This document shows, piece by piece, positions 11,052-50,715 of a DNA stretch of 64,000 nucleotides. Position numbers and translations under genes: made by a program. This DNA comes from an uncultured Pseudobdellovibrionaceae bacterium (lineage in GTDB: Bacteria; Bdellovibrionota_B; Oligoflexia; Oligoflexales; Bog-1112), in assembly GCA_964611335.1 (NCBI GenBank), contig CAZSXR010000001.1, forward strand, positions 382,993 through 446,992, read 5' to 3'. Under the pieces are notes generated by a model. The model was not told the DNA's origin, made no database searches, and worked only from the letters and a program-made list of their open reading frames with translations. Within the stretch, counting starts at the first letter, position 1, and each line of letters begins with the position of its first letter.

Positions 11052-11115
11052 CGTTTTTGTTCAATCATTTCAGAGATAGGAAGGGAGTATTAAACTCCCT
11101 TTTCTTATTTGTAGA

Positions 11116-12799: not shown

Positions 12800-13381
12800 A
12801 TGCGTTTATTAAAAAAAAATTTTCTAATTTTAACTCTTTGCCTTTCCTTTGAATCTCTCTTCGCCATAGGTGTGACACCCGATGAGAGGCTTATTTACGC
12901 GGTAAAAGGCGTGAAATCAGGTCTTGCTCTTTTAAGTTGTGTTTTTCTCAATCCCTTAGCAGGACTTTTTGTGTCTTACTACCAACCGGATGAAAACCGA
13001 AGCGATCTTGTCAGAATTGATGCGGCTCTTGAAGATGGGGCGAATATAGATTTCCAGGAGCTTTACAGTGGGTATACAGCTCTGATCTATGCAGCTTACA
13101 AAGGCTATCCTAAAATTGCAGCACACCTTCTTGCGAAAGGTGCAAATATAGAAGTGAAAGAATACGAGGGATACGATGCCCTCTCGATGGCAAACTATTA
13201 CGTTAAAGAATACACCTTAGATTATGAGCGAAATGAAAGCAGAGAGCTTTCCGCTTGGTTCACAGCAGAAATGAAACAAAGCCACCGAGAATATTATCAG
13301 AGATTTATAGATCGCTATCAAGAGATTGTAGATTTGATTGAAGCTTCGACTCACTCAATACAGTCGAGTTGGCTCTGGTAA
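12800..13381 (+). CDS. secreted ankyrin-repeat protein
   Basis: Signal-like MRLLKKNFLILTLCLSFESLFA from the ATG at 12800. Two ANK-like repeats (GYTALIYAAYKGYPKIAAHLLAKGANIEVKEYEGYDALSMA). Confidence 0.65.
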   Translation: MRLLKKNFLILTLCLSFESLFAIGVTPDERLIYAVKGVKSGLALLSCVFLNPLAGLFVSYYQPDENRSDLVRIDAALEDGANIDFQELYSGYTALIYAAYKGYPKIAAHLLAKGANIEVKEYEGYDALSMANYYVKEYTLDYERNESRELSAWFTAEMKQSHREYYQRFIDRYQEIVDLIEASTHSIQSSWLW

Positions 13382-13388
13382 AATTTTT

Positions 13389-15500
13389 TTAAAACACAGA
13401 GTTGTGGAAGACTAGACTTTGTAGATGCCAATCGGAATAGCCTTCTTCCACTTTTGTCGTATTCTTAGGATTCCCTACATGCAGTTGCTCATACTGAAAG
13501 GGAATATGACAGTAGTTCCTATCCACAAATTGCTTATTCACAAGAGCAATATGAATTTCGTTAGAGCCTGAACCTATGACCTTTTGCTCAGCTTTGAGAG
13601 GAACAAAGATAGCATCGCTTCCATATTCAAGAGGTCTGTCGAGTTCATAAAGAAAGAAGCGGAAATTGTAGAGTTCTGCTATCAATTCCAAATGTACAAA
13701 ACTGAGATAGATGTGGGGATTGTCGAAGAGCAAAGCCCACTCTTCGAGGGTATTTGTATCAATCTCGGATAAAACGTTATTTACAAGTTTTAAATGATGG
13801 GGATCAGGATCAAGACTCGTTTTGATCTTTAAAAGATCCTCTATAAACTGTTTTCGAGAGATTCCCACAATGTGAAAAAGAGAATCTCCATAAGGCTCCT
13901 GAGGAGCAATGCGACTCGGAACAATTATACCACTATGCAATTGAGTTTTTCGAACAGAGCTTAATCGATCTTTTTGAAGGTGTGTACGTTCTAAGATCTC
14001 TTCTGCTTGAGGGTACATATGTGCGGTATAGGTGTTTTCTAAATCGCGTTTGGCATTCTCTATAAAAAGAGGGCCTGAAACTTTTAAAAATTCGGAACTT
14101 TCTTTTGTAATTCCCTTTGTGCCGAGTAAAGTTTGCACCCGAGGTGTGAAATCCGGTTGTTTTACATACTCTTTTAAACGGTCTATAAATTCAACCCAAT
14201 CAGAGTTATGGGGAAGTCTGTAGACACTTGTTATCATTAAACAGTCTTTATAAGCCATTCTCAACACACGTCTAAACACTGTGTTTGCAAGAAAGAGTGT
14301 TCCATTCATGGATTGAACTTGAGGTCTGAATTCAAAATGCTTTCCATCTTTGTAATATGCGATATCTCCATCACTTTCAAAAGTGAGTGGGAAATTCTTC
14401 ATAACTTTGGGATAATATGGATTTTTGATCTCGAAGCTTTCTAAGGAATTGAAAAAATTCATGGAGAAATTGCGAATGAGGTTGCAATGAAAGAGAGTTA
14501 AGACTCCAGGTAAATTCTCTACATCTTTCTTGTACAAAAACATTTCTTCGAAGTTAACTTTATCAAAGCCTAAAGCTTCGGAATAGCTGTTGTCAAAAGA
14601 CTTACTCCAGGTGTGAACATTACCCATATGAACGACAATATAATCTTCACCATCGGTGGGAAGAATTTCCTGGTCGTTGTAGAATTCTGCGTTTTCTGCA
14701 GAAGGATCATTGGTGAGGCTATAGGAATTTTGTCCAGATTGGGTTGATTTTCGAACGAGTTTATATTTTCCAAAACCGGAAGAGCTTTGGACCTTTTCTT
14801 TTTGTACTTCCCAACGTTGTGAATCCAAGTTGAATTTGAGAACAAAAATTCTTGAAACCGTGTTGAGAGTGTAGACATGTTCTTGAGTAGGAACGCCTTC
14901 GTAGTAAGCAAGAATAAGAGTTTTAGCCCTCATCTTTGTCGTTGCGAGAATCTGGTCCATTTCATTAACATTTTCTATTTTGCGCCATCTATTTCCTTTG
15001 GGAATAAATCTTTCAGGATTTTCTCCATTCAGAAGATGTTTTAATGCTCGATAAATAAGACCATGTTCTAAAAGATCGCGAAAATCTTCGAGTTTTCTAT
15101 TGCTTTCAAGGTTGAAAGCAAGATTTTGAAGATTTTCTTTAAGGTCTATACGGGCATCAAAAGTTGCAGGAATACGTTCCCTATTATTCATGGAAAGCAA
15201 GTAAATCAAAAAATCGTCAAGTGTGGCTTCTTGAGAATTTATGATTTCCAAAGAATACCATGCTATAAGTTGGCAAATAGCAGCACGTGTTCTCGGATCT
15301 GTTATGTTAAAACCTGGTTTTCTCAGTTCAATATGAGCTTTATTTATGGCTTTTTCTAAGTCTTCTTCTGAAGTGTCCAACTTCTTAAGAATATGAGCCT
15401 GGAGTCTATCTTCTTCAAGTTCACTGCTTGCAAAAGACGTATGACTTAAAAAAAGACTGAGAAAAAAAATGTACTTTAGAATCTTCATGAGAAACCGCAT
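13389..15500 (-). CDS. large secreted protein of unknown function (C-terminal region weakly OTU-like)
   Basis: Signal peptide MRFLMKILKYIFFLSLFLSHTSFA; 703 aa. Its start abuts the LuxR stop. See findings for the speculative OTU-like blocks. Confidence 0.5.
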   Translation of the reverse strand: MRFLMKILKYIFFLSLFLSHTSFASSELEEDRLQAHILKKLDTSEEDLEKAINKAHIELRKPGFNITDPRTRAAICQLIAWYSLEIINSQEATLDDFLIYLLSMNNRERIPATFDARIDLKENLQNLAFNLESNRKLEDFRDLLEHGLIYRALKHLLNGENPERFIPKGNRWRKIENVNEMDQILATTKMRAKTLILAYYEGVPTQEHVYTLNTVSRIFVLKFNLDSQRWEVQKEKVQSSSGFGKYKLVRKSTQSGQNSYSLTNDPSAENAEFYNDQEILPTDGEDYIVVHMGNVHTWSKSFDNSYSEALGFDKVNFEEMFLYKKDVENLPGVLTLFHCNLIRNFSMNFFNSLESFEIKNPYYPKVMKNFPLTFESDGDIAYYKDGKHFEFRPQVQSMNGTLFLANTVFRRVLRMAYKDCLMITSVYRLPHNSDWVEFIDRLKEYVKQPDFTPRVQTLLGTKGITKESSEFLKVSGPLFIENAKRDLENTYTAHMYPQAEEILERTHLQKDRLSSVRKTQLHSGIIVPSRIAPQEPYGDSLFHIVGISRKQFIEDLLKIKTSLDPDPHHLKLVNNVLSEIDTNTLEEWALLFDNPHIYLSFVHLELIAELYNFRFFLYELDRPLEYGSDAIFVPLKAEQKVIGSGSNEIHIALVNKQFVDRNYCHIPFQYEQLHVGNPKNTTKVEEGYSDWHLQSLVFHNSVF

Positions 15501-16328
15501 CTATGATGAGAACTCTGGTAAACGGTCAAAACCGCTTTTGCAGAGAAAATCTTGTAATTTGCTTTTATGGGAAATGTGGGATTTTAATTTGATGCTTTCT
15601 ATATAATCTTCGACAGTTCGACTTGAAATCTTCATGACTTTTGCGATGTCTTGAGATCTCATATTTTTGCTTATAAGGTAAGCACAGTGAGCTTCTCTTT
15701 TTGTCAAATAACTTTGGGTATCCGTGTTCAGATAGTATTTTTTGGTCTTCATAGTCTGCATGCAAAATTTAAGAGAGTCATCTTTTGTGAAAATTTTTTT
15801 GGAGCTACTGATAAATTTAAATCGAGGAGCATTGCGCAGAAGGTCGGAAGATTGATCCAGGAAATAAAAAATAAAATGACGAAGAAGGTCATAATTTGAA
15901 CTTAGACTCTCATAGGAAGCTCTATGAGAAGCAAGAGGAAAAAAACTGAATTCTTCAAGGTAGTCAGGTTTTGAAAGCAATATAGAGTAAGGAGGAGTTG
16001 TTGAAAATTGGCGTTCAAGGTCTTCTACCATATTCTGAAATAGGCTTTTAAAACTCGAATTGGCCATTCCTAGAAGGGAGTTTGTATCTCCAATTCTTAT
16101 AGTGGAATTTAATCCACCTGGTAAGGAAGGTGTGGGTACACCTTTGAGATAATCATAGTCCTTGACAAAGTGTTGTATAAAGTTCTCGGAGTTTGAGACA
16201 CAAAATCGAGTGTCATCGGGGTAGTAGCGGATGTATGAGAAAATTCCTATGGGTAGGGTTTGAGTGAGAGCTTTTGTTATCTTGTTAATCTCTGAATATA
16301 AACATGGATCGTTTATTTTGAGTTGCAT
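15501..16328 (-). CDS. LuxR/GerE-family HTH transcriptional regulator
   Basis: C-terminal LTKREAHCAYLISKNMRSQDIAKVMKISSRTVEDYIESIKLK is a GerE-type HTH. The N-terminal domain is not recognised. Confidence 0.75.
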   Translation of the reverse strand: MQLKINDPCLYSEINKITKALTQTLPIGIFSYIRYYPDDTRFCVSNSENFIQHFVKDYDYLKGVPTPSLPGGLNSTIRIGDTNSLLGMANSSFKSLFQNMVEDLERQFSTTPPYSILLSKPDYLEEFSFFPLASHRASYESLSSNYDLLRHFIFYFLDQSSDLLRNAPRFKFISSSKKIFTKDDSLKFCMQTMKTKKYYLNTDTQSYLTKREAHCAYLISKNMRSQDIAKVMKISSRTVEDYIESIKLKSHISHKSKLQDFLCKSGFDRLPEFSS

Positions 16329-16358
16329 AATGACTTTCTTTCAAGGCAAGCGATCTCA

Positions 16359-17354
16359 TCAATTGATAGTGCCATCCGATAATCGACAAGGAGCACAAGG
16401 CAGGTGTCTTTCTCCGTTAGGCTTGCAGGAGAGTATAGTTTCTTTTGTTCCATAGGAACTTTTTGGCCAATGATTTTGATAATTTTCAAAAACTATATCA
16501 TTCAAGACATTTCCCCCTGAAATAGCATTTACAGAATGATTGCTTGTAGAACACCAGGCTCCTTCAGCTGGGATAACGAAAGAACTTATGTTTTGAGAAG
16601 CGAGCTGTGCACTGATCCAGGCATCATCTACAAAGTAAGCAGCAGATTTTTCTTTAGCTTCGTTGGGGGAAGGAATAGGAAGCTTCATCCATAAGTTTTG
16701 GCAAAAAAATCGAGGTTGAATCATATAGCCCGAAACTCCTGTTACAACTGCAATCTGTATGGGTTCTTTTATTTCATAAGAATGTATAATTCCCATATCA
16801 CTAAATTTGAGGCTTGTGGGCATTTGATGACCACGATTTGCTAAAGCTGAATCGGAGTACGCAGGAACTTCACTCCACTTAAGAAAATTATCGACCATAT
16901 CTTTAGGATAGGTTTGATCATCGTCTACAACTATAATTTTCCAATCTTCTTGTTGTCTTGATTTTTTTTCTTGGATAATCGGAATGAATTTTGTGTTGGG
17001 ACCCCAATCTTCCTCTGTTGAGAGAATACGAACAAAAGGATGAGCATTTTTTAAATATTCGGGGATAGGATATTCACAATTTTCTTTTCGGGAAAGTTTA
17101 GGAATAGCGATGACAATTTCTTCAGGAAGAGTTGTTTGTTCTAGTAGTGAAATAAGTGTGGGATAGATATCTCCAATTCGAGAGGGAATAGAAGTTAGAG
17201 AAATCGAAACACCTTTTGCTATTTTGGAATTGTTGGGTATAGGAAGTTCTTTTGGATAGTTTTTAGAAGGGCCATACTTTTTTTCAGTGCCGCATGAAAA
17301 TATGCAGAGAAAAAATACGGGGAATATAATTTTTGAAAATGTACTTGCTTTCAT
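16359..17354 (-). CDS. putative exported GT-A-fold glycosyltransferase (lipoprotein-like signal)
   Basis: MKASTFSKIIFPVFFLCIFSCG signal. SLTSIPSR...LISLLEQT...IVIAIP followed by IIVVDDDQTYP (a DxD-type motif). Confidence 0.4.
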   Translation of the reverse strand: MKASTFSKIIFPVFFLCIFSCGTEKKYGPSKNYPKELPIPNNSKIAKGVSISLTSIPSRIGDIYPTLISLLEQTTLPEEIVIAIPKLSRKENCEYPIPEYLKNAHPFVRILSTEEDWGPNTKFIPIIQEKKSRQQEDWKIIVVDDDQTYPKDMVDNFLKWSEVPAYSDSALANRGHQMPTSLKFSDMGIIHSYEIKEPIQIAVVTGVSGYMIQPRFFCQNLWMKLPIPSPNEAKEKSAAYFVDDAWISAQLASQNISSFVIPAEGAWCSTSNHSVNAISGGNVLNDIVFENYQNHWPKSSYGTKETILSCKPNGERHLPCAPCRLSDGTIN

Positions 17355-17489
17355 GAGTCTGCCAAACGTTAGGGTTAGAATTTCGCAATATTTATCATGG
17401 ATTTGTAAAAACTTTCCAGCGTTTTTTAGATAAAGAAGAACATGCTGAAATGTATGGGTAATTAACAGGGTGTTTCTTTTTGGATCATA

Positions 17490-18395
17490 TTACAAAGTTT
17501 CAGAAAGTTTGTACCAGGTAAGCTCATGCTTGTTATGACTCAAATGCATAATCCTCGAACCAGGAATTTCTAAAAACTTTTTAATCACATCGTAGTGATT
17601 GGTGCCTTGAAACTTTAAAGTGAATACGAAGTTTTTTTCAGGACAAGCTTGAATGTAAGCCTTCACAAAGGGAAGAACCTTTCCAGGATAGGCAATTACA
17701 TCGGAAAAAATCCAGCTAACTTCAGGATGTGTTTCTGGTTTTACCTTAAAACAATCTTCGTCGAAAAATGTAACTTTTGGATCTTCTTGAAGAGTGAGTT
17801 CCAAGTAAGCGCGATCGTAAGCAATAACTTTTGCTCCGAGCTGTCGAAGAACCCAAGTCCAACCTCCGGGGCTTGCTCCCAGATCTAGACAGACATCCTT
17901 TTTTCCAGGAAATTTTTGAACACGTGTAAAGAATTCCCAGAGTTTTAAATAGGCACGACTCGGAGGATTTTCATGATCTTCTTTGAAATTCCATTCTCCG
18001 TTCGGAACGGTGCTTGTGCAATGGGGAGAAGCAAGGATGGTGTTCTCATCGAGCAGAGTCCAGGAACCTAGGACGGAGTCAGGAACTTTTTGTAAAAAGT
18101 CTAAAGGTTTCGTAGGAATATAAGGAAGTTTGTCTTGGATCAACTGTGCACGTCTATGGAGTTGGAAACTATAGACAGCCCAGTTCCTTTGCATTTCACG
18201 CAACTGACGAGCTGCATCTGCAATGGAATCGATTTTCAATGTGATGGGATTCAACCAGATGTTGAGAGCAAAGGGGCAGTGTTGTGGTTTTCCCTTCGCA
18301 ATAAAAAGACGTTCGTGTCGTCCAATGATATTTTGAAGACCAAGCTCAACTGTTTTTTCGAGACCTTCTGGTGCTAAATAGGCACTGATACTCAT
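17490..18395 (-). CDS. rlmM: 23S rRNA 2'-O-ribose C2498 methyltransferase RlmM-like
   Basis: PPSRAYLKLWEFF, CLDLGASPGGWTWVL, WIFSDVIAYPGKV and FTLKF align with my recollection of E. coli RlmM blocks. The ATG at 18395 overlaps the upstream stop (ATGA). Confidence 0.7.
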   Translation of the reverse strand: MSISAYLAPEGLEKTVELGLQNIIGRHERLFIAKGKPQHCPFALNIWLNPITLKIDSIADAARQLREMQRNWAVYSFQLHRRAQLIQDKLPYIPTKPLDFLQKVPDSVLGSWTLLDENTILASPHCTSTVPNGEWNFKEDHENPPSRAYLKLWEFFTRVQKFPGKKDVCLDLGASPGGWTWVLRQLGAKVIAYDRAYLELTLQEDPKVTFFDEDCFKVKPETHPEVSWIFSDVIAYPGKVLPFVKAYIQACPEKNFVFTLKFQGTNHYDVIKKFLEIPGSRIMHLSHNKHELTWYKLSETL

Positions 18396-27647: not shown

Positions 27648-28688
27648 TTATTTCGAAGAATCAAATCCGGCAGAGCGTTGAGAACGCACAAGGTCTTGAA
27701 CGTGAAGCGAGTGCTCTTTGAAGTTCGAAGAGAAGTGGTGTTTCTTTTCTGCACCCGGAATGAGTACAAAATAATAATAACCCTCACTTGTAGGGTTGAA
27801 CACCGCTTCCAAAGAAGCCAAGGAAGGTGAGGCTATAGGAGTCGGAGGCAAACCTTTGTGAATCCTTGAGTTGTAGGGATTCTTTTCATTTTGGAGGTCT
27901 GCCCATGTGAGGTTTCCATTAAAGTTCGGAATTCCATAAATTAATGTGGAGTCAATCCCTAAAGGACTTCCTGCTTTGAGTCGTCTCCAAATCACTTCTG
28001 CAATTTTTGAACGTTCGTCATTTTGTGCGGTTTCTTTTTCAATCAGAGAAGCAAAGCTAACCCATTGTTCGAGAGTAAGATCAAACTCTTTAAGCTTATC
28101 TTCATAGTGGGAAGGAAGACGATTGAAAAATTCCCGTATGGGCTTTTCATACGCTTCTTCAGGTGTTGGTTTTTTATGGAAAAATTTATAGGTAGCGGGA
28201 AATAGAAATCCTTCTAGTACAGGAATCCCCATTTTTTCAAACCAGGCATGATCCGTTTCCAGTTTTTTAAAGTCTTCCTCCGTCCCTAGTTCTAAAGAAA
28301 TCAGGTGCGCTCGAACTTGCGCTACAGTCGCACCTTCAGGAATAGTAAATTCTAACGCCAGTGGATTATAAGTTTTCCCCTCGACCATAGTACGGATGAT
28401 TTCTTGAGGACTCACTTTGTCTACAAACCGGTAAAGTCCTGCAAGAAAGTGTTCATAACTACGTTCGTGGTATTTCACCCAGAGATGAAAGAAGAGCGCA
28501 TTTTGAATCAAACCCTTGTTCTTAAGATCTTCTGAAAGAGAACGAAGGCTTTCCCCCTTAGTCAGTTCTACTAGAACTTCTCCCTCAATATTTACAGGGT
28601 GTTTAGCCCAAGAAGAAAGGTAGTAGATCGTGTAAGAGCTAAACACGAGACCTAAAAAAACGAGAATAATGAGGATTCTAGACTTCAT
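27648..28688 (-). CDS. mltG: endolytic murein transglycosylase MltG (YceG family)
   Basis: N-terminal TM; NPYNSRIHKGLPPTPIASPSLASLEAVFNP is the YceG signature. I chose the start at 28688 to avoid overlap with fumC. Confidence 0.85.
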   Translation of the reverse strand: MKSRILIILVFLGLVFSSYTIYYLSSWAKHPVNIEGEVLVELTKGESLRSLSEDLKNKGLIQNALFFHLWVKYHERSYEHFLAGLYRFVDKVSPQEIIRTMVEGKTYNPLALEFTIPEGATVAQVRAHLISLELGTEEDFKKLETDHAWFEKMGIPVLEGFLFPATYKFFHKKPTPEEAYEKPIREFFNRLPSHYEDKLKEFDLTLEQWVSFASLIEKETAQNDERSKIAEVIWRRLKAGSPLGIDSTLIYGIPNFNGNLTWADLQNEKNPYNSRIHKGLPPTPIASPSLASLEAVFNPTSEGYYYFVLIPGAEKKHHFSSNFKEHSLHVQDLVRSQRSAGFDSSK

Positions 28689-28695
28689 TTTTCGA

Positions 28696-30075
28696 TTATA
28701 CCATATCTTCCGGTCGGACGTACTTGTCGAAGTCTTCCCCACTAAGATAGCCTAATGCTATCGCAGCAGTACGAAGGGTTGAGTTATCTTTGTAGGCACG
28801 TTTGGCAATTTCAGCTGCCTTATCATATCCCACTATAGGATTTAATGCTGTGACGAGCATAAGGGAGTTTTTTAAATGCATCTGAATGCGTTCTTTGTCG
28901 GGTTCTATGCCTTTGACACAGTGTTCTGTGAAACTCTCTATGGAATCGGAAAGCAAACGTATAGATTCCAAAACATTATGAATGATGACAGGTTTGTAAA
29001 CATTCAACTCGAAGTTTCCTGAGCTTCCTGCAAGACTCACCGTCACATCATTTCCCAGGACTTGTGTGCAGACCATGGTCAAAGCTTCACATTGAGTAGG
29101 ATTCACCTTACCAGGCATGATGGAAGATCCAGGCTCATTTGCGGGAATGATAATCTCACCCAATCCACATCGGGGACCACTTGCAAGCCATCTTACATCA
29201 TTGGCAATTTTCATCATTGCACAAGCTAAAGTTTTTAATGCTCCGTGCGTTGATACCAAAGCATCATGAGCTGCAAGCCCCGCAAATTTATTTGCAGCAG
29301 TGACAAATGGAAAATTTGTTAGGTTTCGGATTTTTTCTGCAACGAGTGTAGCATATTTAGGATGAGTGTTGAGTCCTGTGCCGACAGCTGTTCCTCCCAG
29401 AGCCAGTTCGTAAAGACCGTCGAGGGAAAGTTCACATTGTTTTTTTGCAAAGCGTACTTGTGCAGCCCATCCGCTGATCTCTTGTCCTAAAGTCAGTGGA
29501 GTTGCATCCATGAGATGGGTTCGCCCTATTTTAATGATTTTCGCATTAGCTTTTGCTTTAGTATCCAGTGTTTTGATCAACTCCTCACAAGCAGGGAGCA
29601 AAGTTTCCTGAATCGCGCAAACAGTTGCAATATGCATGTAGGTTGGAAAAGCATCGTTGGAAGATTGTGACTTGTTGACATCGTCATTAGGATGCACCGG
29701 TTTTTTAGATCCAAGTACTCCTCCAGCGAGTTCAATAGCCCGGTTTGCAATGACTTCGTTGGCATTCATGTTGGACTGAGTTCCCGATCCTGTTTGCCAG
29801 ACCACAAGGGGAAAATGTTCATCAAGCTTTCCTGCGATAACTTCGTCGCTCGCTTTGCAGATAAGATCGCATAATTCCTTATTCAGGATTCCTAGCTCGT
29901 TATTCGTAAGAGCTGCTGCTTTTTTAACAATGCCCATGGCTTTAATCATGGAACGGGGGAATCGATGCCCTCCAATTTTGAAATTTTCAAGTGAACGCTG
30001 GGTTTGTGCACCCCAATACTGGTTTTTTGCAACTTTGATCTCACCGATTGAATCTTTTTCTATACGAAATTCCAC
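28696..30075 (-). CDS. fumC: class II fumarate hydratase
   Basis: [16 protein letters not shown] signature. 459 aa. Confidence 0.95.
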
Positions 30076-30154
30076 AGGATTTTCCTTATGACAAGTTCGG
30101 TGAATATTTTAACTGGGGACGGAGCTCAAGGACATGAAAAAAAAGGGACTATAA

Positions 30155-40735: not shown

Positions 40736-42100
40736 CTAGATATGATCATGATTGTGATCGTGATCGTGATCGTGATCGTGATCATCATGCTCTTCATGAT
40801 GATGGTGATCATGTGCTGCAGGAATAGGTGTGATGGTTGCGTGAGATGTAAGAAAGTTAAGTGCCTTTTTGAAAAGCAGTTGTTCCCGAACATTGTCACC
40901 ATATTCTCGCAGATTGCGATTAAAATCAGCTTCTTTTTTGGCAGGATCTGTTTCTCGAGAAAGCTGTGCAATAGCCTGATGAAACTCTTCGTTTGTGAGA
41001 GACAACTTTTCTTGTTTGATCAACTCATGCAAAAGCATTGTATTTTTTGCTCGCATTTTTGCTTCGACCAAAACTTCTGCACGCATATTCTTATCAGCAA
41101 GAGCTTTCTGACGTTCAGAATCATTTTTAAAATGGGATTGAGAGATTATGTGATCGATAACCTGATCTGTGATGGAGGGCGGAACTTCAAAAGGAACTCT
41201 GTCGTTTAGTTGCGTAAGAAGAGCGTTGTGTACGCCATCTTCGTTCAAACGAGTGTAATGCGCTGCTAAACCTGCGCGAACTTTTTCTTTGAGATCTTCA
41301 AGAGACTCATAGTTCAAATCTTTTGCAAACTCTTCATCGATAACGGGAACTTCCAGTTTCTGAATGGATTTTAACGTCACATTGAAAACAGCAGATTTTC
41401 CTTTGTATTTTTCAGTAATGCCTTCGCTTGGGAATTTAACATTTACAGGTTTTGTCTCATTCAGATTCATTCCAATAAGAGCATCTTCGATTTCTTTGAT
41501 AAAGAGTCTATGTCTGCCAACTTCAACAACTTGTTCATCCATAGTTAGCAAAGGATCATCTACACCTTCGATCTGTGCTGTATAAGAGATTTTAACGAGG
41601 TGTCCATTATCACAACGTGTGCTTTCTGCTACCGGTTTTAGAGTGGCGTGCTGGCGAGCGAGTTGTTCTAATCGATGTCCCAACATATGATCATCAGCTG
41701 TGTGATGTTCATAAGAGACAACAAGATTTTTATGTTGATCATTGAGTTTGATTTCAGGAAGCACATCGATGATGGCACTGATTTCATAAGCTTGATCTTC
41801 TGTAGGAATATTCGAATTTTCTATGTAAGGCTGAGAGATAGCCGAAATGCCGCTCTCTCTCAGAGAGGAAAGTAGGTGTTCACGAACAAGCTGGTCTACA
41901 ACGTCATAGGAACCTGATCCACCGTACATTTTTCGGATAAGGGTCATAGGGACCTTACCAGGTCTAAACCCATGAACTTTGGCCTTGCCTCGAACTTTTT
42001 GATAATAGGCTGAAAAAGCTTTGTTTACAGCTTCAGGTGGTACAGTAACTTTTACGCGTCTTTGCACGGAGTTGATGTCTTCAACGATGGCTTTCATCAT
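40736..42100 (-). CDS. tig: trigger factor with C-terminal His/Asp-rich tail
   Basis: N-terminal ribosome-binding GFRPGKVP, and position upstream of clpP-clpX-lon. The tail reads AAHDHHHHEEHDDHDHDHDHDHNHDHI. Confidence 0.9.
   Translation of the reverse strand: MMKAIVEDINSVQRRVKVTVPPEAVNKAFSAYYQKVRGKAKVHGFRPGKVPMTLIRKMYGGSGSYDVVDQLVREHLLSSLRESGISAISQPYIENSNIPTEDQAYEISAIIDVLPEIKLNDQHKNLVVSYEHHTADDHMLGHRLEQLARQHATLKPVAESTRCDNGHLVKISYTAQIEGVDDPLLTMDEQVVEVGRHRLFIKEIEDALIGMNLNETKPVNVKFPSEGITEKYKGKSAVFNVTLKSIQKLEVPVIDEEFAKDLNYESLEDLKEKVRAGLAAHYTRLNEDGVHNALLTQLNDRVPFEVPPSITDQVIDHIISQSHFKNDSERQKALADKNMRAEVLVEAKMRAKNTMLLHELIKQEKLSLTNEEFHQAIAQLSRETDPAKKEADFNRNLREYGDNVREQLLFKKALNFLTSHATITPIPAAHDHHHHEEHDDHDHDHDHDHNHDHI
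40753..40782 (-). repeat. hexanucleotide microsatellite (GATCAC)5 encoding (Asp-His)5
   Basis: The + strand reads GTGATC x5, 40753..40782. Confidence 0.95.
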
Positions 42101-42261: not shown

Positions 42262-42861
42262 TTAGCCTTTTTTCTTCGCTTTGATGGGGAATAGGCTTCC
42301 ACAAAGGCTATTGTTTTCAGAAGTGCTGATGCAAATATCGCTTTCATTCTCGGTACAATTTAAATTCTCAGAAGCAGTTTCCTTCACAATACAAACGTTA
42401 TTTTCACCCACACTAACAGTAGATGTTGGACAGATCGATAAAACGGTCCCGCAGATAGGGGTTAGTCTTTTCTTTTTAGCTTCCTTTCCTGCTCTTTTAG
42501 CTTCTTTACCTTCTCTTTTTGCTTCTCTTCTAGCCTCTTTACCTTCTCTTTTTGCTTCTCTTCTAGCCTCTTTACCTTCTCTTTTAGCTTCTTTACCTTC
42601 TCTTTTAGCTTCTTCGCCTTCTCTTTTAGCTTCTTCGCCTTCTTGTTTCTCATTAGTATGTGTTGCGTTTCCCTGTCCTGGGATCGTTGCTGGGCCAGAC
42701 CCTGCTTCCCCACCTGTAATGTTTACATCGGAGCCCAGTGCTTCCAAGCCTTCGGTCGCTGCTGAGCTAGAAGATTTCTTAGCTTTTGAAGAGGATCCCC
42801 TGCAAAAGCTAAGGGCTAAGCTCAATATTAAGATTCCAAAAAACTGTAAGTTTCGTTGCAT
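42262..42861 (-). CDS. exported K/E/R-rich tandem-repeat protein with Cys-rich C-terminus
   Basis: Signal/lipobox-like MQRNLQFFGILILSLALSFC. EEAKREG/KEAKREG/KEARREAKREG repeats. Seven Cys in the last ~70 aa. Confidence 0.6.
   Translation of the reverse strand: MQRNLQFFGILILSLALSFCRGSSSKAKKSSSSAATEGLEALGSDVNITGGEAGSGPATIPGQGNATHTNEKQEGEEAKREGEEAKREGKEAKREGKEARREAKREGKEARREAKREGKEAKRAGKEAKKKRLTPICGTVLSICPTSTVSVGENNVCIVKETASENLNCTENESDICISTSENNSLCGSLFPIKAKKKG
42474..42645 (-). repeat. in-frame 21-bp and 33-bp tandem repeats within the K/E-rich gene
   Basis: 33-bp unit at 42504..42536 and 42537..42569. 21-bp units at 42570..42590, 42591..42611 and 42612..42632. Read directly. Confidence 0.9.
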
Positions 42862-42951
42862 AGATGCCCCCACATAGTGAACTTAGTGGCGGATCGGTAA
42901 ATTTTCTGAAAAATTTAAGGCCGTTAGTTTAACCTGTTAGGATTAAAGAAT

Positions 42952-46739: not shown

Positions 46740-48686
46740 ATGAAACGAGTTCAGCTTTTAAGCGATGAAGTTATAAAAAAAATCGCTGCGGGGGAAGTTG
46801 TAGAACGCCCTGCGAGCGTTGTAAAGGAGCTTGTCGAAAATTCCTTAGATGCGGGAGCTCGCAAAATCATCGTCGAGCTGGAAGAGGGTGGGACGGAGCG
46901 CATCACAGTTCAGGATGATGGCTGTGGAATTCCTGCCGAAGACTGCCTTTTGGCTCTTTCGCGGCATGCTACGAGTAAGCTTTCGCAAGATGAAGATCTT
47001 TTTAATATTGAGACGTTAGGTTTTAGAGGCGAAGCTTTAGCAGCTATTTCTGCCATAGCCAATTTTTCGCTCTGCAGTCGTGTAAGGGGGACGGAGCAAG
47101 GTTGTAAACTAACTATTGAAGGTGGTGGGACTCCGATTCTTGTTCCTTGGGTAGGGAATGAAGGAACGACGATTACGGTTTCTAAGCTTTTTTGCACGGT
47201 GCCTGTGCGTGCAAAATTTCTCAAAGGGCCAGATACAGAGTTTGCAAATTGCCATGATCTTGTTCAGGCTCTTGCTTTGTCATCCCCCCATGTAGGTTTT
47301 TCCCTTTTTCACAATGGCAAACTTAAATTCTCTGCACCAGCTTTAGAATTTGGGCGGGACGGAGCCTGGCGTGGAGAGAAGACATTACGTGAGCGATGGG
47401 CACTTATTGCAGGTAGAGAAGAGGCTGAACTTGCGATTTATGTTCGAGAAGAAAACGAGTATGGCCGGTGGGAAGCTCTTCTTTCGGCGCCAGGTCGGGA
47501 TAAGGCAACGCATAAGAATGTTGTTCATTTTGTGAATGGCCGTTGGGTTAAGGATAAAATATTGAACTTCGGAATTCTTCGCGGCTATCATTCTCACCTA
47601 CTTAAAGGAAGGCACCCTCAAGTTTTATCTTTTTTTGAATGCGATCCTTCTTTAGTCGATGTGAATGTTCATCCCGCTAAAACCGAATTGCGTTTTCAAT
47701 ATCCAGCTGAAGTTCAAGGTTTAATGAGCTTTGCTATTCGTAAACACATGCGTGCTGCAGAGTGGGCACGAACGGAGCAAGATCTTAGGACGGAGCAATG
47801 CCTAAGAGCTGAAACTCTAAGGACGGAGCAAGTTAAAGAATCAATGAGGTCTCTTTCTGTTTTGAACATATCTGAGAACGACAGTTACAGTTCATCGAAA
47901 GATATTACACAAAAAATGCCTGCTGGTGATATTTCACAAATGCGGCAAATGTCGTTGAACGGTATCTCTGTATTGGAAATAAACAAAAGTTCCGAGTCAG
48001 AAAAAACTTCGCTCCGTCCTAATGCAGAAATACTTCGTTCTGTAATCCCTACTGTAATCCCTACTAGGACGGAGCAAACAGCGAATTCACTTTTTCAGCA
48101 AAGCTCACAAGATAAATGGAAGAATCTTCATTACATTGGAACTTACGCCAAATGTTACTTACTCTTCGAAGATAACACGCAGTTGTTAGCTATTGATCAG
48201 CATGCTTTCCATGAGCGTATTCTTTACGAACGTCTTTGTTCAAACCCCAGGCTTCTTGCTCAAAGTCAACCTTTGATGATGCCGGAAGCTCTTTCTTTGA
48301 CGGCAAATCATATTGAAGCCTTGAGAACCCACGAGCACACTGTTCGTAGCGCGGGTTTCATAATAAAATTTTTAAATGAAACAACAGTTGAAATCTGTGC
48401 AGTTCCTACTCTGCTTGTACATAAAAATTATGAAGATGTTTTTCAACATTTTGCAGAAAAACTCGGAGAGGGGTGCGTGGCTTCAGCTCAACATGTTCAC
48501 CATGATTTAATGGCAAGTATTGCATGTCATGCCGCTGTGAGAGCTGGAGAGGAACTAAGCCCTGAGGAGCTCAGAACTTTGCTTGGAGAAGCTGAGACTG
48601 TGGATTTTTATCATAATTGTCCTCATGGAAGACGAGTTTTCAGAACTTTTGAAAAGAGTCAGGTGGCAAAATGGTTCGATCGCTAA
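46740..48686 (+). CDS. mutL: DNA mismatch repair protein MutL with motif-laden linker
   Basis: GHKL ATPase VVKELVENSLDAGA and DDGCGI. C-terminal endonuclease-type DQHAFHERILYE and CPHGRR. Confidence 0.93.
   Translation: MKRVQLLSDEVIKKIAAGEVVERPASVVKELVENSLDAGARKIIVELEEGGTERITVQDDGCGIPAEDCLLALSRHATSKLSQDEDLFNIETLGFRGEALAAISAIANFSLCSRVRGTEQGCKLTIEGGGTPILVPWVGNEGTTITVSKLFCTVPVRAKFLKGPDTEFANCHDLVQALALSSPHVGFSLFHNGKLKFSAPALEFGRDGAWRGEKTLRERWALIAGREEAELAIYVREENEYGRWEALLSAPGRDKATHKNVVHFVNGRWVKDKILNFGILRGYHSHLLKGRHPQVLSFFECDPSLVDVNVHPAKTELRFQYPAEVQGLMSFAIRKHMRAAEWARTEQDLRTEQCLRAETLRTEQVKESMRSLSVLNISENDSYSSSKDITQKMPAGDISQMRQMSLNGISVLEINKSSESEKTSLRPNAEILRSVIPTVIPTRTEQTANSLFQQSSQDKWKNLHYIGTYAKCYLLFEDNTQLLAIDQHAFHERILYERLCSNPRLLAQSQPLMMPEALSLTANHIEALRTHEHTVRSAGFIIKFLNETTVEICAVPTLLVHKNYEDVFQHFAEKLGEGCVASAQHVHHDLMASIACHAAVRAGEELSPEELRTLLGEAETVDFYHNCPHGRRVFRTFEKSQVAKWFDR
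47770..48075 (+). repeat. cluster of GGACGGAGC-type motif copies in the MutL linker, plus a 12-bp tandem duplication
   Basis: GAACGGAGC at 47770; exact copies at 47788, 47821 and 48067 (+) and 48011 (-). GTAATCCCTACT x2 at 48042..48065. Confidence 0.9.
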
Positions 48687-48691
48687 ATAGT

Positions 48692-49594
48692 ATGAAACTT
48701 CCAAAGCTCATTGCAATCGTAGGTCCTACAGCTAGTGGAAAGTCAAGACTTGCGCTTGAGCTTGCAAAGCAAATCAAAGGTGAAATCGTAAGTTGTGACT
48801 CCGTCCAAGTGTACAAAGGTTTTGACATAGGATCCGCGAAAGCTTCTTTGAAAGAACAGGGAGAAATCCCTCATCATCTCATAAATGTAGTGACATGGAG
48901 GGAATCTTTTGATGCTGCCCGTTACCGAGAACTTGCTTTGAAAGCTATAGAAGAAATTCAGAGAAGGAGTCATACACCGATATTAGTAGGAGGAACAGGT
49001 CTGTATTTTCGAGCTCTCTGTGGAGAAAAGTTTCACGATTTACCTAGTGATAGCGTTCTTCGTCAAGAGTTGAGTGCGTGGACTTCCGAAGTTCTTTATA
49101 GCAAATTACAGGAACTTGATCCGCTCCGTGCTAAAGAATTACATCCGAACGATCGCTTTCGCGTCATCCGAGCCTGTGAAATTGCAATGCTTACAGGTAA
49201 AAGTCTTTCAAGCCTTTCTCAAGATTCCACCATAGCTCCGTCCCACCCTTATACGATTCTTTGCAAACCTTCTCGTGAGTCTTTGCTCCGTGCTATAGCT
49301 CAACGGAGTAAGCACATGCTTGAGAATGGGCTCATCGAAGAAGTAAGCAGTCTTCTCAAAGAAGGGTGCCCGCAGTCTGCAAGACCTATGCAGTCTATTG
49401 GTTACAGTCAGGTATGCAAGTTTTTCAATGAGCTTATTAAAGAAGAACATTTACTCGAAGCAATCATCGTTGCAACACGCCAATATGCGCGCAAACAACT
49501 TATGTGGTTTCGTAAAGTTCCTATCGATAAGGTCATAGAAGATTCTCAAATTCTTGAAGGTAATTTGCTCAAACACTTAACGTCGAATGAGTGA
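48692..49594 (+). CDS. miaA: tRNA dimethylallyltransferase
   Basis: IAIVGPTASGKS P-loop, VSCDSVQVYKGFDIGSAK, and the conserved mutL-miaA order. Confidence 0.92.
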   Translation: MKLPKLIAIVGPTASGKSRLALELAKQIKGEIVSCDSVQVYKGFDIGSAKASLKEQGEIPHHLINVVTWRESFDAARYRELALKAIEEIQRRSHTPILVGGTGLYFRALCGEKFHDLPSDSVLRQELSAWTSEVLYSKLQELDPLRAKELHPNDRFRVIRACEIAMLTGKSLSSLSQDSTIAPSHPYTILCKPSRESLLRAIAQRSKHMLENGLIEEVSSLLKEGCPQSARPMQSIGYSQVCKFFNELIKEEHLLEAIIVATRQYARKQLMWFRKVPIDKVIEDSQILEGNLLKHLTSNE

Positions 49595-50098: not shown

Positions 50099-50196
50099 AA
50101 ATTCCCCATAATTGGAATCTATTCATTCTAACAAATGCCGATAGAAGACGCAGGATAAACTTAAGGCTTAAATTAAACTTCGTAAGGAAATCGATT

Positions 50197-50715
50197 ATGC
50201 AATACAAAGAACATTGTATCAGTAACTTGGGAATAGGAACTTTGCTCAGCATTGGTTTGGGTGAACTGCAGTTGAGTTTGAACCTTCGCCTCATCTTTGC
50301 GTTTTCATTCATACTTGCAACTTTTTTTCTAAGTCCCGACTTAGATCTTTTCCACAGCGCTCCGTCCCGTAATTGGGGCTGTTTCAAAATCCTATGGTGG
50401 CCTTACACTAAATTGTTCAAGCACAGAGGGATAAGCCATGTCCCCATACTTGGTACAGGGAGCCGCTTTATCTATCTTTCAACTCTTGCGTACCTAGGAG
50501 TGCTGGTCTACGATGTTGTCACAGGGCTTCATGCTGGATCAACTATAGAGGGCAGTGAAGTTTTTAATTTCGGACTTACGAAAGCTAACGAGAGTATGGA
50601 TTTTTTCTCACAGAATCACGACCTATGTGTTTCTGCACTCGCTGGTGCCGCTGCTTCAGACTTAGGGCATTTGTTTGTCGATGGTTTCAGCTCCCTTTGG
50701 AAAAGGATCTTTTAA
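50197..50715 (+). CDS. membrane metal-binding protein (DUF2227-like)
   Basis: SPDLDLFHSAPSRNWG...WWPYTKLFKHRGISHVPILGT pattern. Four hydrophobic segments. Confidence 0.45.
   Translation: MQYKEHCISNLGIGTLLSIGLGELQLSLNLRLIFAFSFILATFFLSPDLDLFHSAPSRNWGCFKILWWPYTKLFKHRGISHVPILGTGSRFIYLSTLAYLGVLVYDVVTGLHAGSTIEGSEVFNFGLTKANESMDFFSQNHDLCVSALAGAAASDLGHLFVDGFSSLWKRIF

What the first reader, a model, noticed from the sequence alone, without database searches (positions are those of the whole stretch)
46891..48075. MutL carries seven motif copies; its inter-domain linker is built around repeated AGGACGGAGCAA (Arg-Thr-Glu-Gln) units
Seen directly. There are motif copies at 46891, 47089 and 47357 in the ATPase domain. 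In the linker there are copies at 47788, 47821 and 48067 (+) and 48011 (-), plus a near copy at 47770. The linker peptide reads ARTEQDLRTEQCLRAETLRTEQ...LRPNAEILRSVIPTVIPTRTEQ. It also contains a 12-bp tandem duplication, GTAATCCCTACT x2 (48042..48065). The MutL linker is known to be poorly conserved and tolerant of insertions. DUS and USS are reported to be enriched in DNA repair genes. Rickettsial palindromic elements are a precedent for repeats inserting in-frame into ORFs. Inference: the linker has been expanded by repeated insertion or duplication of motif-bearing DNA.
Basis: partly seen in the sequence, partly recalled or inferred. Interest (0 to 1): 0.6.

Follow-up and report, generated by a model that had tools for sequence, protein, structure and literature searches.

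The report
Transposase-linked 9-mer repeats inside mutL
The repeated GGACGGAGC words in this mismatch-repair gene are real, but they match the short end-sequence of a REP-type (RAYT) transposase gene 26 kb away, a word scattered through many genes of this genome, and do not look like a DNA-uptake signal; in MutL they sit in frame, mostly in the flexible linker.

Summary
GGACGGAGC occurs 23 times in the 64-kb window (0.19 expected). Seven copies are in mutL at the stated coordinates. The linker holds three identical AGGACGGAGCAA 12-mers, one near copy and a perfect 12-bp tandem duplication.

The interpretation needs changing. The 9-mer does not behave like a DNA-uptake sequence. It is the inverted terminal motif of a RAYT-type (REP-associated, Y1 HUH) transposase gene at 19621-20331. 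The same 9-mer flanks RAYT homologues (49-72% identical) in the same positions and orientations in eight other Oligoflexales-like loci, often as tandem arrays. Three more loci carry one-mismatch variants. Copy density peaks beside the RAYT, and relatives' loci without a RAYT have almost none.

The motif has no hairpin, has no stop codon in any frame, and is mostly intragenic. In structured domains (MutL N-terminus, MiaA, TyrRS, a heptosyltransferase), all 12 testable copies align without a motif-sized insertion and sit at variable positions. The linker copies form one subfamily and carry duplication footprints, one of them a "duplicated 5' flank next to the motif" signature seen 11 times. MutL's linker is not longer than in relatives. 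mutL is the densest gene in the window, but not uniquely so.

Verdict: a new variant of the RAYT/REP theme.

The parts
46740..48686 (+). mutL ORF, 648 aa. It is intact and carries the endonuclease-type motifs DQHAFHERILYE and CPHGRRV.
47752..48134 (+). Inter-domain linker of MutL (aa 338-465). It cannot be aligned with orthologues.
46891..46899 (+). Motif copy in the HATPase domain. It encodes G-T-E-R where relatives have G-[KST]-K-[RL]. Substitution, no indel.
47089..47097 (+). Motif copy at the end of the HATPase domain (R-G-T-E-Q). The closest relative, L003, already has GGGACGGAG at this site.
47357..47365 (+). Motif copy in another frame (R-D-G-A), in a variable loop between the HATPase and DNA_mis_repair domains. 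No insertion relative to L003.
47770..47778 (+). Near copy GAACGGAGC (A-R-T-E-Q). It is the first unit of an 18-nt periodic pair with 47788.
47787..47798 (+). 12-mer AGGACGGAGCAA (R-T-E-Q). The unit TCTTAGGACGGAGCAA matches the 19-nt array unit of L012.
47820..47831 (+). 12-mer AGGACGGAGCAA (R-T-E-Q).
48011..48019 (-). Motif copy on the opposite strand (TTAGGACGGAGCGA on the - strand). It is read as S-L-R-P.
48040..48065 (+). Exact 12-nt tandem duplication (CTGTAATCCCTA x2.2; peptide VIPTVIPT) that ends at the 5' edge of the next motif copy.
48066..48077 (+). 12-mer AGGACGGAGCAA (R-T-E-Q), directly 3' of the duplication.
19621..20331 (+). RAYT-like Y1 HUH transposase gene, 236 aa. HuH motif NHAH at residues 59-62; tyrosine in YIWLNR at residue 120.
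19514..19557 (+). Upstream end of the RAYT unit: two motif copies (GGACGGAGT and GGACGGAGC) on the + strand, 107 and 72 nt before the ATG. An 11-nt duplication of the 5' flank lies at 19530-19551.
20545..20582 (-). Downstream end of the RAYT unit: a 19-nt x2 array carrying two motif copies on the - strand, 217 and 236 nt after the stop. An adjacent 10-nt flank duplication lies at 20577-20597.
18937..19210 (+). Three motif copies inside the SpoU-type methylase gene, antisense to the gene.
25009..25693 (.). Four copies of the 8-mer inside tyrS. All are length-neutral relative to orthologues. A GCACGGAGC variant copy lies just outside this range, at 25878.
26438..26944 (.). Three copies inside a heptosyltransferase gene. 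All are length-neutral, and two replace 3-4 residues.
48798..49243 (-). Two copies inside miaA. One is made purely by synonymous codon choices at the conserved D-S-V-Q. There are also two GCACGGAGC variants, at 49123 and 49285 (the latter just beyond this range).

Best explanation
GGACGGAGC is the conserved terminal motif of a RAYT-type (REP-associated tyrosine, Y1 HUH) transposase unit found in Oligoflexales-like bacteria.

**Shown**
- The RAYT-like gene at 19621-20331 is bracketed by the motif in inverted orientation: copies on the + strand upstream and on the - strand downstream.
- This architecture is conserved in homologous loci from other genomes.
- In this genome the motif family, including the variants GCACGGAGC, GAACGGAGC and GGACGGAGT, has multiplied to about one copy per 1.5-2 kb, mostly inside genes.
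- The 9-mer has no stop codon in any of the six frames.

**Inferred**
- The RAYT binds or nicks this motif, and its activity drives the spread of the motif and the local rearrangements beside it.
- mutL holds the densest cluster because its 128-residue linker is unconstrained.
- The linker copies (R-T-E-Q units, one subfamily preceded by TA/TAA) arose from one or a few in-frame arrivals. Small duplications of 12 and 18 nt followed, of the kind seen beside the motif at RAYT ends.
- The N-terminal copies arose by substitutions at tolerant positions.
- The copies are most likely neutral passengers in an intact, functional MutL.
For: **The gene is a RAYT-type transposase**
- Pfam Y1_Tnp scores 40.6 bits against a cutoff of 23.
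- The HuH residues (N59, H60, H62) and Y120 are invariant in 26 homologues.
- The AlphaFold model has mean pLDDT 80, and its best PDB match is 4ER8, E. coli TnpA-REP, at E = 2.9e-6. IS608 and ISDra2 transposases follow.
- JGI names homologues 'REP element-mobilizing transposase RayT'.

**The motif brackets the gene**
- In the window, copies lie at 19514 and 19549 (+) and at 20548 and 20567 (-).
- The same 9-mer, upstream on + and downstream on -, flanks homologues in L011, L012 (the same contig as L010), L013, L016, L017, L018, L019 and L026. These RAYTs are 49-72% identical to the window's.
- The flanking copies often form arrays of 19-44 nt period.
- One-mismatch variants flank L014, L015 and L020.
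- Orientation relative to the RAYT is concordant for 41 clusters and discordant for 9.

**Density follows the RAYT**
- Density of the 8-mer is 2.5-3.5 copies/kb within 1 kb of the RAYT in the four copy-rich loci (1.0/kb in L026), and 0.5-0.9/kb out to 10 kb in the window and L012.
- Relatives' loci without a RAYT hold 3 copies of the 8-mer in about 105 kb.

**The signal is at the DNA level**
- Copies occur in all frames and both orientations, and 26 of the 33 copies of the 8-mer lie in ORFs.
- There is no stop codon in any of the six frames.

**The linker copies are related to each other and to RAYT-associated arrays**
- The TA/TAA-preceded subfamily accounts for 4 of 4 linker copies, against 6 of 23 window-wide.
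- The unit TCTTAGGACGGAGCAA equals the array unit in L012.
- The 12-bp duplication at 48040-48065 belongs to a class of short duplications that end at -1 to +5 of the motif start. There are 10 cases in 75 copies against 0.21 expected, plus one more in L026.
Against: - Classical RAYT partners are 20-40-nt extragenic hairpins. Here there is no palindrome or hairpin excess: mean folding energy is -2.36 around the motif and -2.27 at random positions.
- All 12 testable intragenic copies in structured domains are length-neutral substitutions, not insertions. This is what a point-mutation drive such as uptake bias predicts, and it is hard to explain by cut-and-paste transposition.
- The mutL cluster is 26 kb from the RAYT, and no RAYT remnant lies near it.
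- Beyond the terminal repeats, orientation polarity is only modest: 20 concordant against 8 discordant, P = 0.036.
- Two partial RAYT loci, L021 and L022, show no motif.
- Only 64 kb of a contig of at least 1 Mb could be read.
- No biochemical evidence links this RAYT to the motif.
- NCBIfam REP_Tyr_transpos scores 43.8 bits, below its cutoff of 80.
Confidence: 0.7

Rival explanations
1. DNA-uptake sequence (DUS/USS-like). The 9-mer would be the signal by which a competent bacterium recognises DNA of its own kind. It would accumulate genome-wide by point mutation plus uptake bias, including in mutL.
For: - The motif is a short 9-nt core with an A-rich 3' flank.
- It is about 120-fold over-represented.
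- It occurs in both orientations and all frames.
- Copies in structured domains are length-neutral substitutions at variable positions. From my own knowledge of the USS literature, this is the pattern reported for USS in proteomes; I did not check a paper for it here.
Against: - The motif is tied to a RAYT gene in inverted orientation at conserved distances across about 10 loci.
- It is strongly clustered rather than even. Of the 33 copies of the 8-mer, 19 lie within 10 kb of the RAYT and 10 lie at mutL-miaA, while 62% of the window holds 4.
- It is almost absent from about 105 kb of related genomes.
- Tandem arrays and flank duplications are not features of uptake sequences.
- The held literature has nothing on uptake sequences in this clade.
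Confidence: 0.1
2. Classical in-frame insertion of a REP/RPE-like palindromic mobile element. Every copy would be an inserted element, as with Rickettsia palindromic elements or the intragenic REPs in uvrA, recB and similar genes.
For: - Intragenic REPs, many in DNA synthesis and repair genes and in tRNA synthetase genes, are documented (PMC3733652).
- The linker copies cannot be shown to be substitutions.
- The units are multiples of 3 nt (12 and 18).
Against: - There is no palindrome or hairpin.
- The conserved part is only 9-15 nt.
- All 12 testable copies in structured domains lack a motif-sized insertion.
- The linker is shorter than in relatives.
Confidence: 0.12
3. Selection at the protein level for repeated R-T-E-Q peptides in the MutL linker, for example as an interaction or phosphorylation motif. 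The DNA repeat would be a by-product.
For: All four + strand linker copies are in the same frame and give RTEQ.
Against: - The same DNA word occurs in other frames (RDGA, GRS), on the opposite strand (SLRP, APS, DSV), in unrelated genes and in intergenic DNA.
- The three 12-mers are identical at synonymous sites.
- Orthologues have no RTEQ.
Confidence: 0.03
4. A host chromosome-organising polar motif (Chi-, KOPS- or AIMS-like) that happens to be frequent in mutL.
For: It is an over-represented 8-9-mer.
Against: - There is no overall strand skew: 13 copies on + and 10 on -.
- There is no GC-skew switch in the window.
- The motif is clustered, forms tandem arrays, is associated with the RAYT and is absent from relatives.
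Confidence: 0.03

Closest known systems
TIRYT/'TIRtron' units (Di Nocera et al. 2013, PMC3733652), equivalent to TnpA-Y1 subclass 2.1 (Quentin et al. 2018, PMC6006769) and Bertels RAYT Group 1 (PMC5581495)
   Same: - A RAYT-like gene bracketed by short inverted repeats rather than REP hairpins.
- Protein length 236 aa, against a subclass median of 238 aa.
- An NH-x-H HuH motif and a C-terminal extension of about 100 aa.
- The class is reported as prevalent in delta-proteobacteria-like lineages.
- Some TIRs are reported to form moderately abundant repeat families arranged in dimers or clusters.
   Different: - The terminal motif here is GGACGGAGC, not the published GGGGWSAS consensus.
- The tyrosine motif is YIWLNR, not Y-x-x-L-N-P.
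- No HTH domain was detected in the C-terminus.
- Copies are mostly intragenic and length-neutral.
- Subclass assignment rests on these features only. No tree was built.
REP/REPIN-RAYT systems (E. coli TnpA-REP, PDB 4ER8; Pseudomonas REPINs, PMC3116915)
   Same: - A low-copy RAYT gene flanked by its cognate repeats in inverted orientation (REPtron layout).
- The repeat family is abundant in the genome.
- Motif variants accompany different RAYT homologues: GCACGGAGC at L014 and L020.
- The fold matches 4ER8.
   Different: - REPs are 20-40-nt imperfect palindromes with a GTAG tag, they are extragenic, and they move as roughly 100-nt REPIN doublets.
- This motif is a 9-15-nt non-palindrome.
- 26 of 33 copies are in ORFs.
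- No doublet unit was found.
Intragenic REPs and Rickettsia palindromic elements (RPE)
   Same: - Repeat-encoded peptides lie in frame in apparently functional proteins.
- DNA repair genes and tRNA synthetase genes are among the carriers.
   Different: - Those are insertions of 20-150 nt with hairpin potential.
- Here the copies in structured domains are substitutions, and the repeat has no hairpin.
DUS of Neisseriaceae / USS of Pasteurellaceae
   Same: - A 9-12-nt word, massively over-represented, in all frames and both orientations.
- It is created in genes by base substitution at tolerant sites.
   Different: - From my own knowledge, uptake sequences are evenly spread, shared across the family and not linked to a transposase gene.
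- This motif clusters around a RAYT and is missing from related genomes.
HIP1 (GCGATCGC) of cyanobacteria
   Same: - An iterated octamer-scale word found inside genes in all frames, maintained at the nucleotide level.
- It is visible by chance in the Anabaena locus L002, with 21 copies.
   Different: - HIP1 is a palindrome.
- To my knowledge it is not linked to a RAYT.

Membership tests
Y1 HUH transposase / RAYT (TnpA-REP) | HuH motif and catalytic tyrosine | tested here: met
   NHAH at residues 59-62 and Y120 in YIWLNR. N59, H60, H62 and Y120 are invariant in 26 homologues.
Y1 HUH transposase / RAYT (TnpA-REP) | Profile match to curated family models | tested here: inconclusive
   Pfam Y1_Tnp scores 40.6 bits, above its cutoff of 23. 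NCBIfam REP_Tyr_transpos is the best hit but scores 43.8 bits, below its cutoff of 80. A PDB sequence search found nothing.
Y1 HUH transposase / RAYT (TnpA-REP) | Fold of TnpA-REP / IS200-IS605 TnpA | tested here: met
   The AlphaFold model has pLDDT 80. The top Foldseek hit is 4ER8_A at E = 2.9e-6 (TM-score 0.69 normalised to the target), followed by ISDra2, IS608 and IS200 transposases.
Y1 HUH transposase / RAYT (TnpA-REP) | Gene flanked by its cognate repeats in inverted orientation (REPtron layout) | tested here: met
   Found in the window and in 8 other loci with the perfect motif, plus 3 loci with a one-mismatch variant.
Y1 HUH transposase / RAYT (TnpA-REP) | Low copy number, divergent paralogues (not IS-like) | tested here: inconclusive
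   There is one copy in the window. A 69%-identical paralogue, P0130, lies on the same 1.03-Mb contig. The rest of the genome could not be read.
REP (repetitive extragenic palindrome) | Imperfect palindrome able to form a stem-loop | tested here: not met
   No conserved complementary flanks in 77 aligned copies. Folding energy around copies equals that of random windows.
REP (repetitive extragenic palindrome) | Extragenic location | tested here: not met
   26 of 33 copies of the 8-mer lie inside ORFs of at least 90 aa.
REP (repetitive extragenic palindrome) | GTAG or CGTC terminal tag next to the stem | tested here: inconclusive
   The motif contains GACG, the complement of CGTC, but there is no adjacent stem, so the tag definition cannot be applied.
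TIRYT / TnpA-Y1 subclass 2.1 | RAYT-like gene flanked by inverted repeats that are not hairpins; protein of about 238 aa with a C-terminal extension | tested here: met
   The protein has 236 aa and the core ends near residue 130. The inverted flanking repeats are 9-14 bp.
TIRYT / TnpA-Y1 subclass 2.1 | TIR motif GGGGWSAS; Y-x-x-L-N-P tyrosine motif; HTH-like C-terminal domain | tested here: not met
   The motif is GGACGGAGC. The tyrosine motif is YIWLNR. There is no Pfam hit in the C-terminal 107 aa.
DNA uptake sequence (DUS/USS) | Short word, strongly over-represented, in both orientations and inside genes | tested here: met
DNA uptake sequence (DUS/USS) | Roughly even spacing along the chromosome | tested here: not met
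   There are two hot regions (17.5-30 kb and 46.8-50.4 kb), and 4 copies in the remaining 62% of the window. This covers the 64-kb window only.
DNA uptake sequence (DUS/USS) | Shared by related genomes of the clade | tested here: not met
   3 copies of the 8-mer in about 105 kb of relatives' loci (L003, L005, L006, L008, L009, L023, L025).
DNA uptake sequence (DUS/USS) | Preferential uptake of motif-bearing DNA by a competence receptor | not testable with these tools
   This needs a transformation or uptake competition assay.
In-frame inserted repeat (RPE-like) | The copy is an insertion relative to orthologues | tested here: inconclusive
   Not met at the 12 sites in structured domains. The linker cannot be aligned, so its 5 copies cannot be judged.
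MutL (endonuclease type) | HATPase + transducer + MutL_C domains with DQHA(X)2E(X)4E and CPHGRP-like motifs, and an intact ORF | tested here: met
   The sequence reads DQHAFHERILYE and NCPHGRRV.

The most novel reading that the evidence does not exclude
This RAYT clade may drive a new kind of iterated sequence. The 9-nt, non-palindromic, stop-free word would be written into resident DNA, coding regions included, without changing its length. That would be a transposase-linked short-patch conversion or nick-and-repair drive, not insertion of an element. The duplicated 10-12-nt 5' flank next to the motif would be its footprint. If so, RAYTs could remodel protein sequences in place, and the dense cluster in mutL could make the mismatch-repair gene a preferred site of RAYT-induced lesions or in-frame length changes.
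Probability: 0.25. Interest if true: 0.85.

Novelty: new variant of a known kind. Interest (0 to 1): 0.62.

Why it matters
RAYT-type transposases are widespread, and their function is still debated. The largest class (Group 1 / subclass 2.1 / TIRYT) has no agreed DNA partner.

This work turns up a clade-wide, sharply defined 9-mer partner. It lacks the hairpin thought to be essential for recognition by Y1 transposases. It lives mainly inside genes. It appears in conserved domains by length-neutral change. That gives concrete oligonucleotide substrates for biochemistry.

It also offers a natural system for asking how a short word spreads through coding DNA. The same question is open for uptake sequences and for HIP1.

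For annotation, it warns that a DUS-like k-mer signature can have a transposase origin.

For MutL itself the practical message is modest. The protein looks intact, and the repeats sit where variation is tolerated.

Tried and rejected
- **Finding more of this genome.** The genome-contig scan with MutL returned only distant hits, from a Hyphomicrobiaceae MAG and from Anabaena. Exact-protein look-ups of the window's own MutL and of the RAYT paralogues P0130 and P0128 were not on record. The cluster look-up gave no names or accessions. The 1.03-Mb source contig could therefore not be read, and the organism is placed only by named homologues (Oligoflexales / Oligoflexus).
- **Rfam.** Only one tRNA was found, and no RNA family lies at the motif.
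- **Hairpin or REP structure.** Rejected.
- **Chi- or KOPS-like polarity.** There is no strand skew and no GC-skew switch.
- **A second RAYT, or a remnant near mutL.** None was found.
- **'Block overwrite' of 9 nt.** At first this looked supported: NLLN to APSQ needs 8 nt changes. But the same columns are also unusually variable between two motif-free orthologues, 42% against a 31% background. The data therefore cannot separate block replacement from gradual substitution at tolerant sites.
- **C-terminal domain of the RAYT.** No Pfam match. The afdb50 fold library was unavailable.
- **Literature.** A search for the motif string returned only primer hits. Nothing was found on RAYTs or uptake sequences in Oligoflexia.
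- **Tandem Repeats Finder on the linker.** It detects only the 12-nt duplication. The RTEQ units are too few and too far apart to score as an array.
Full report
**1. The observation.**

The ORF 46740..48686 (+) encodes a 648-aa MutL. It scores 473 bits against TIGR00585. Pfam places the HATPase domain at aa 25-122, DNA_mis_repair at aa 223-337 and MutL_C at aa 466-606, so the linker is aa 338-465, nt 47752-48134.

- The near copy at 47770 is GAACGGAGC.
- The 12-mer AGGACGGAGCAA occurs three times in the window, all in the linker, against 0.02 expected.
- The quoted peptide is right.
- The 12-nt duplication is exact: 48040-48065, period 12, 2.2 copies, 100% identity.

The 9-mer occurs 23 times in 64 kb against 0.19 expected, and it is the commonest 9-mer in a 41% G+C window. 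Its 8-nt core GGACGGAG occurs 33 times. Seven copies in 1.95 kb is far from uniform (Poisson P = 9e-6; 5 of 5000 simulations for any window of that size).

Two other stretches are almost as dense. mutL has 3.6 copies/kb, while a SpoU methylase gene, tyrS and a heptosyltransferase gene have 3.1-3.4/kb.

**2. A DNA-level signal specific to this lineage.**

Of the 33 copies of the 8-mer, 26 fall in ORFs. They occur in all three frames and both orientations: 15 on the sense strand, 11 on the antisense strand and 7 intergenic. The word has no stop codon in any of the six frames.

The organism is an uncultured relative of Oligoflexales. The basis is that named MutL and RAYT homologues come from Oligoflexales MAGs and from Oligoflexus.

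The closest MutL proteins are 81% and 78% identical over the N-terminal half and lie in syntenic loci, L003 and L005. Those loci hold 2 and 0 copies of the 8-mer in 22 kb each. Together with L006, L008, L009, L023 and L025, the relatives hold 3 copies in about 105 kb.

**3. What the motif is.**

The ORF 19621..20331 (+) is a Y1 HUH transposase of the RAYT kind.
- Pfam Y1_Tnp scores above its cutoff.
- NHAH and the tyrosine of YIWLNR are invariant among 26 homologues.
- NCBIfam REP_Tyr_transpos is the best hit but falls below its cutoff.
- The AlphaFold model has pLDDT 80, and its best PDB match is E. coli TnpA-REP, 4ER8, at E = 2.9e-6. IS608, ISDra2 and IS200 transposases follow.
- JGI labels homologues 'REP element-mobilizing transposase RayT'.

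The gene is bracketed by the motif in inverted orientation. Two copies lie on the + strand 107 and 72 nt before the ATG. Two lie on the - strand 217 and 236 nt after the stop, inside a 19-nt x2 array.

The decisive result is that this architecture recurs.
- In L011, L012 (the same contig as L010), L013, L016, L017, L018, L019 and L026, the same 9-mer sits upstream on + and downstream on -, wherever the contig reaches. These RAYTs are 49-72% identical to the window's.
- The flanking copies are often arrays: four upstream copies at 21-nt spacing in L013, five downstream in L016, five upstream in L018.
- L014, L015 and L020 carry one-mismatch variants: GCACGGAGC at L014 and L020, GGACGAAGC at L015.
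- Only two truncated loci, L021 and L022, show nothing.
- Orientation is concordant for 41 clusters and discordant for 9.
- Density is 2.5-3.5 copies/kb within 1 kb of the RAYT in four loci (1.0/kb in L026) and falls with distance.

The variants GCACGGAGC (6 copies, 0.16 expected), GAACGGAGC (5, 0.38 expected) and GGACGGAGT (7, 0.20 expected) are also enriched in the window.

**4. How it differs from a REP.**

An alignment of 77 copies gives the consensus G-T-d-GGACGGAGC-w-A-a. It has no complementary flanks. Folding energies around copies equal those of random windows (-2.36 against -2.27 kcal/mol for 40-nt windows).

So the defining REP features, a palindrome and an extragenic position, are not met.

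The nearest described class is the TIR-flanked RAYT-like genes: 'TIRYT' in PMC3733652, TnpA-Y1 subclass 2.1 in PMC6006769, and Bertels Group 1 in PMC5581495.
- **Shared features:** protein length (236 aa against a median of 238 aa), an NH-x-H motif, a C-terminal extension and the absence of hairpins.
- **Differences:** the published TIR consensus (GGGGWSAS), the Y-x-x-L-N-P motif and an HTH-like tail were not found here.

**5. How copies arise.**

In structured domains the copies are length-neutral.

*MutL and MiaA:*
- GGC AAA AAA CGC (G-K-K-R in relatives) reads GGG ACG GAG CGC (G-T-E-R) here. A lysine conserved in all five relatives compared in the codon alignment becomes glutamate.
- At 47089 the closest relative already has GGGACGGAG.
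- At 47357 the motif sits in a variable loop with no extra residues relative to L003.
- In miaA, D-S-V-Q is conserved and only synonymous codon choices create the word.

*TyrRS and the heptosyltransferase:*
- TyrRS has 411 aa against 409 and 411 in orthologues. The heptosyltransferase has 318 aa against 316 and 315.
- Their seven copies of the 8-mer (and three one-mismatch variants) align without gaps.
- Some rewrite 3-4 residues: NLLN to APSQ, VKT to APS.

*Divergence at the 12 motif sites:*
- The window differs from its closest orthologue at 48% of nucleotides, against a 30% background (P = 8e-5).
- Two motif-free orthologues differ from each other at 42% of the same columns, against 31%.
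- Copies therefore sit at tolerant positions. The data do not separate block replacement from stepwise change.

This substitution pattern is the strongest point in favour of a drive like that of uptake sequences. It is the main unexplained feature of the RAYT model.

**6. The linker.**

The five linker units cannot be compared with orthologues, because the linker does not align. Three things tie them to each other and to RAYT-associated arrays.
- All four perfect copies are preceded by TA or TAA, against 6 of 23 in the whole window.
- The pair at 47770/47788 has 18-nt periodicity. Its unit (GGACGGAGCAAGATCTTA) resembles the 19-nt unit of a four-copy array 6 kb from the RAYT in L012 (GGACGGAGCAAAGGTCTTA).
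- The 12-nt duplication ends one base before the next motif-bearing 12-mer.

Short duplications of 9-20 nt period that end at -1 to +5 of the motif start occur 10 times among 75 copies, against 0.21 expected. They include both ends of the window's RAYT and RAYT ends in L011, L012, L016 and L018. L026 adds an eleventh (AGCCCCATCAG x2).

I infer that something happens at the 5' edge of the motif, such as a nick or a replication block by bound protein, that provokes slippage. Alternatively, these are arrays from which a motif was excised: array periods of 18-26 nt minus duplication periods of 9-15 nt come close to the motif length. Neither possibility is shown.

The linker is not expanded. This MutL has 648 aa, against 740 and 737 aa in the closest relatives. 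Those relatives' linkers have their own unrelated tandem duplications: 90 nt x1.9 in L005 and 33 nt x2.3 in L008. Linker turnover by duplication is thus general in this clade. Here it happens to involve the RAYT motif.

**7. Function and consequence.**

MutL retains all its domains and the endonuclease motifs. The copies add polar R-T-E-Q tetrapeptides to a variable linker and change a few surface-tolerant residues. The most likely effect is none (inference).

mutL is the only repair gene in the window, so a repair-gene bias cannot be tested here. PMC3733652 notes that intragenic REPs in other bacteria are frequent in DNA repair and tRNA synthetase genes. In this window mutL, tyrS and miaA are carriers, which parallels that report.

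**8. Verdict.**

It is wrong on the DUS/USS attribution, on expansion of the linker and on insertion in the N-terminal domain.

The underlying system is a RAYT-type transposase with a conserved, non-palindromic 9-mer partner that is mostly intragenic. I did not find this described in the papers searched. I rate it a new variant of a known kind.

The main limits are that only 64 kb of the genome was readable and that no experiment links the protein to the motif.

Noticed in passing
window 19514-20597; L011, L012, L013, L016, L018 and L026 near their RAYT genes: The 10-12 nt immediately 5' of the motif are tandemly duplicated (X-X-motif) at RAYT ends in several genomes. X differs in every genome. 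There are 10 cases in 75 copies against 0.21 expected, plus one in L026. The mutL duplication at 48040-48065 is one of them. The mechanism is unknown.
   Followed up: partly
window 10726-30117; L011 and L012 whole loci: Motif copies upstream of the RAYT are mostly on the + strand and copies downstream mostly on the - strand, so they 'point' at the gene out to about 10 kb. The split is 20 against 8 once the terminal repeats are excluded (P = 0.036). Around mutL-miaA the orientation flips in the same way near 48.1-48.8 kb, with no RAYT there.
   Followed up: partly
window 22592, 25878, 29240, 49123, 49285, 63259; L014 and L020: The variant GCACGGAGC is itself enriched (6 copies against 0.16 expected). 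It is also the flanking motif of two more distant RAYT homologues. A 69%-identical RAYT paralogue (P0130) lies elsewhere on the same contig and might own this variant.
   Followed up: partly
L012 16693-16770: An array of four 19-nt units (TCTTAGGACGGAGCAAAGG) lies at the 3' end of an MFS transporter gene, 6 kb from the RAYT. More copies follow in both orientations at 16809-16886.
   Followed up: no
L012/L010 9958-10043: A 43-nt tandem duplication (91% identical) spans the start codon and the first codons of the RAYT gene.
   Followed up: no
window 19575-19590 and the equivalent positions in L011-L019: A conserved box, A-[GC]-A-T-G-T-C-A/G-Y-T, lies about 45 nt upstream of the RAYT start codon, between the motif and the gene. 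It may be a promoter or an operator.
   Followed up: no
window 40754-40783: A (GTGATC)x5 hexanucleotide repeat at the 3' end of the trigger-factor gene encodes a His/Asp-rich tail (...HDDHDHDHDHDHNHDHI*).
   Followed up: partly
window 42474-42643: 21-nt tandem repeats in ORF 42262-42873 (-) encode about 10 heptads of EAKREGK in a small, probably secreted protein.
   Followed up: partly
window 24242-24318: 27-nt tandem repeats at the start of ORF 24189-24857 give QSLFANDTD x3 just after a signal-like N-terminus.
   Followed up: no
window 50100-50640, compared with L003 13740-17829 and L005 16073-19600: Synteny with the closest relatives (lon-clpX-clpP-tig-E2-lpdA-engB-mutL-miaA-orf) ends just after miaA and the 173-aa ORF. 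Relatives continue with dnaE (after DUF2227 in L003; after two further unannotated ORFs in L005), while the window continues with a cation-efflux gene. One motif copy (50359, -) sits at the breakpoint.
   Followed up: no
L025 5596-6583, compared with window 18392-21158: In a syntenic relative (hep-tyrS-AstE-...-PFK-GNAT), no RAYT lies beside the GNAT gene. The RAYT unit therefore looks like an insertion, or a lineage-specific retention, between the GNAT and SpoU genes of the window's genome.
   Followed up: partly
L009 6731-6790: An unrelated intergenic array, CACTTAGGGAGGAAT x4 (15-nt period), in a relative's locus.
   Followed up: no
window 4952-8896: A 1314-aa protein with AMP-binding, PP-binding and hexapeptide-repeat domains (stand-alone NRPS-like adenylation / carrier / acyltransferase). 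It has no motif copies.
   Followed up: no
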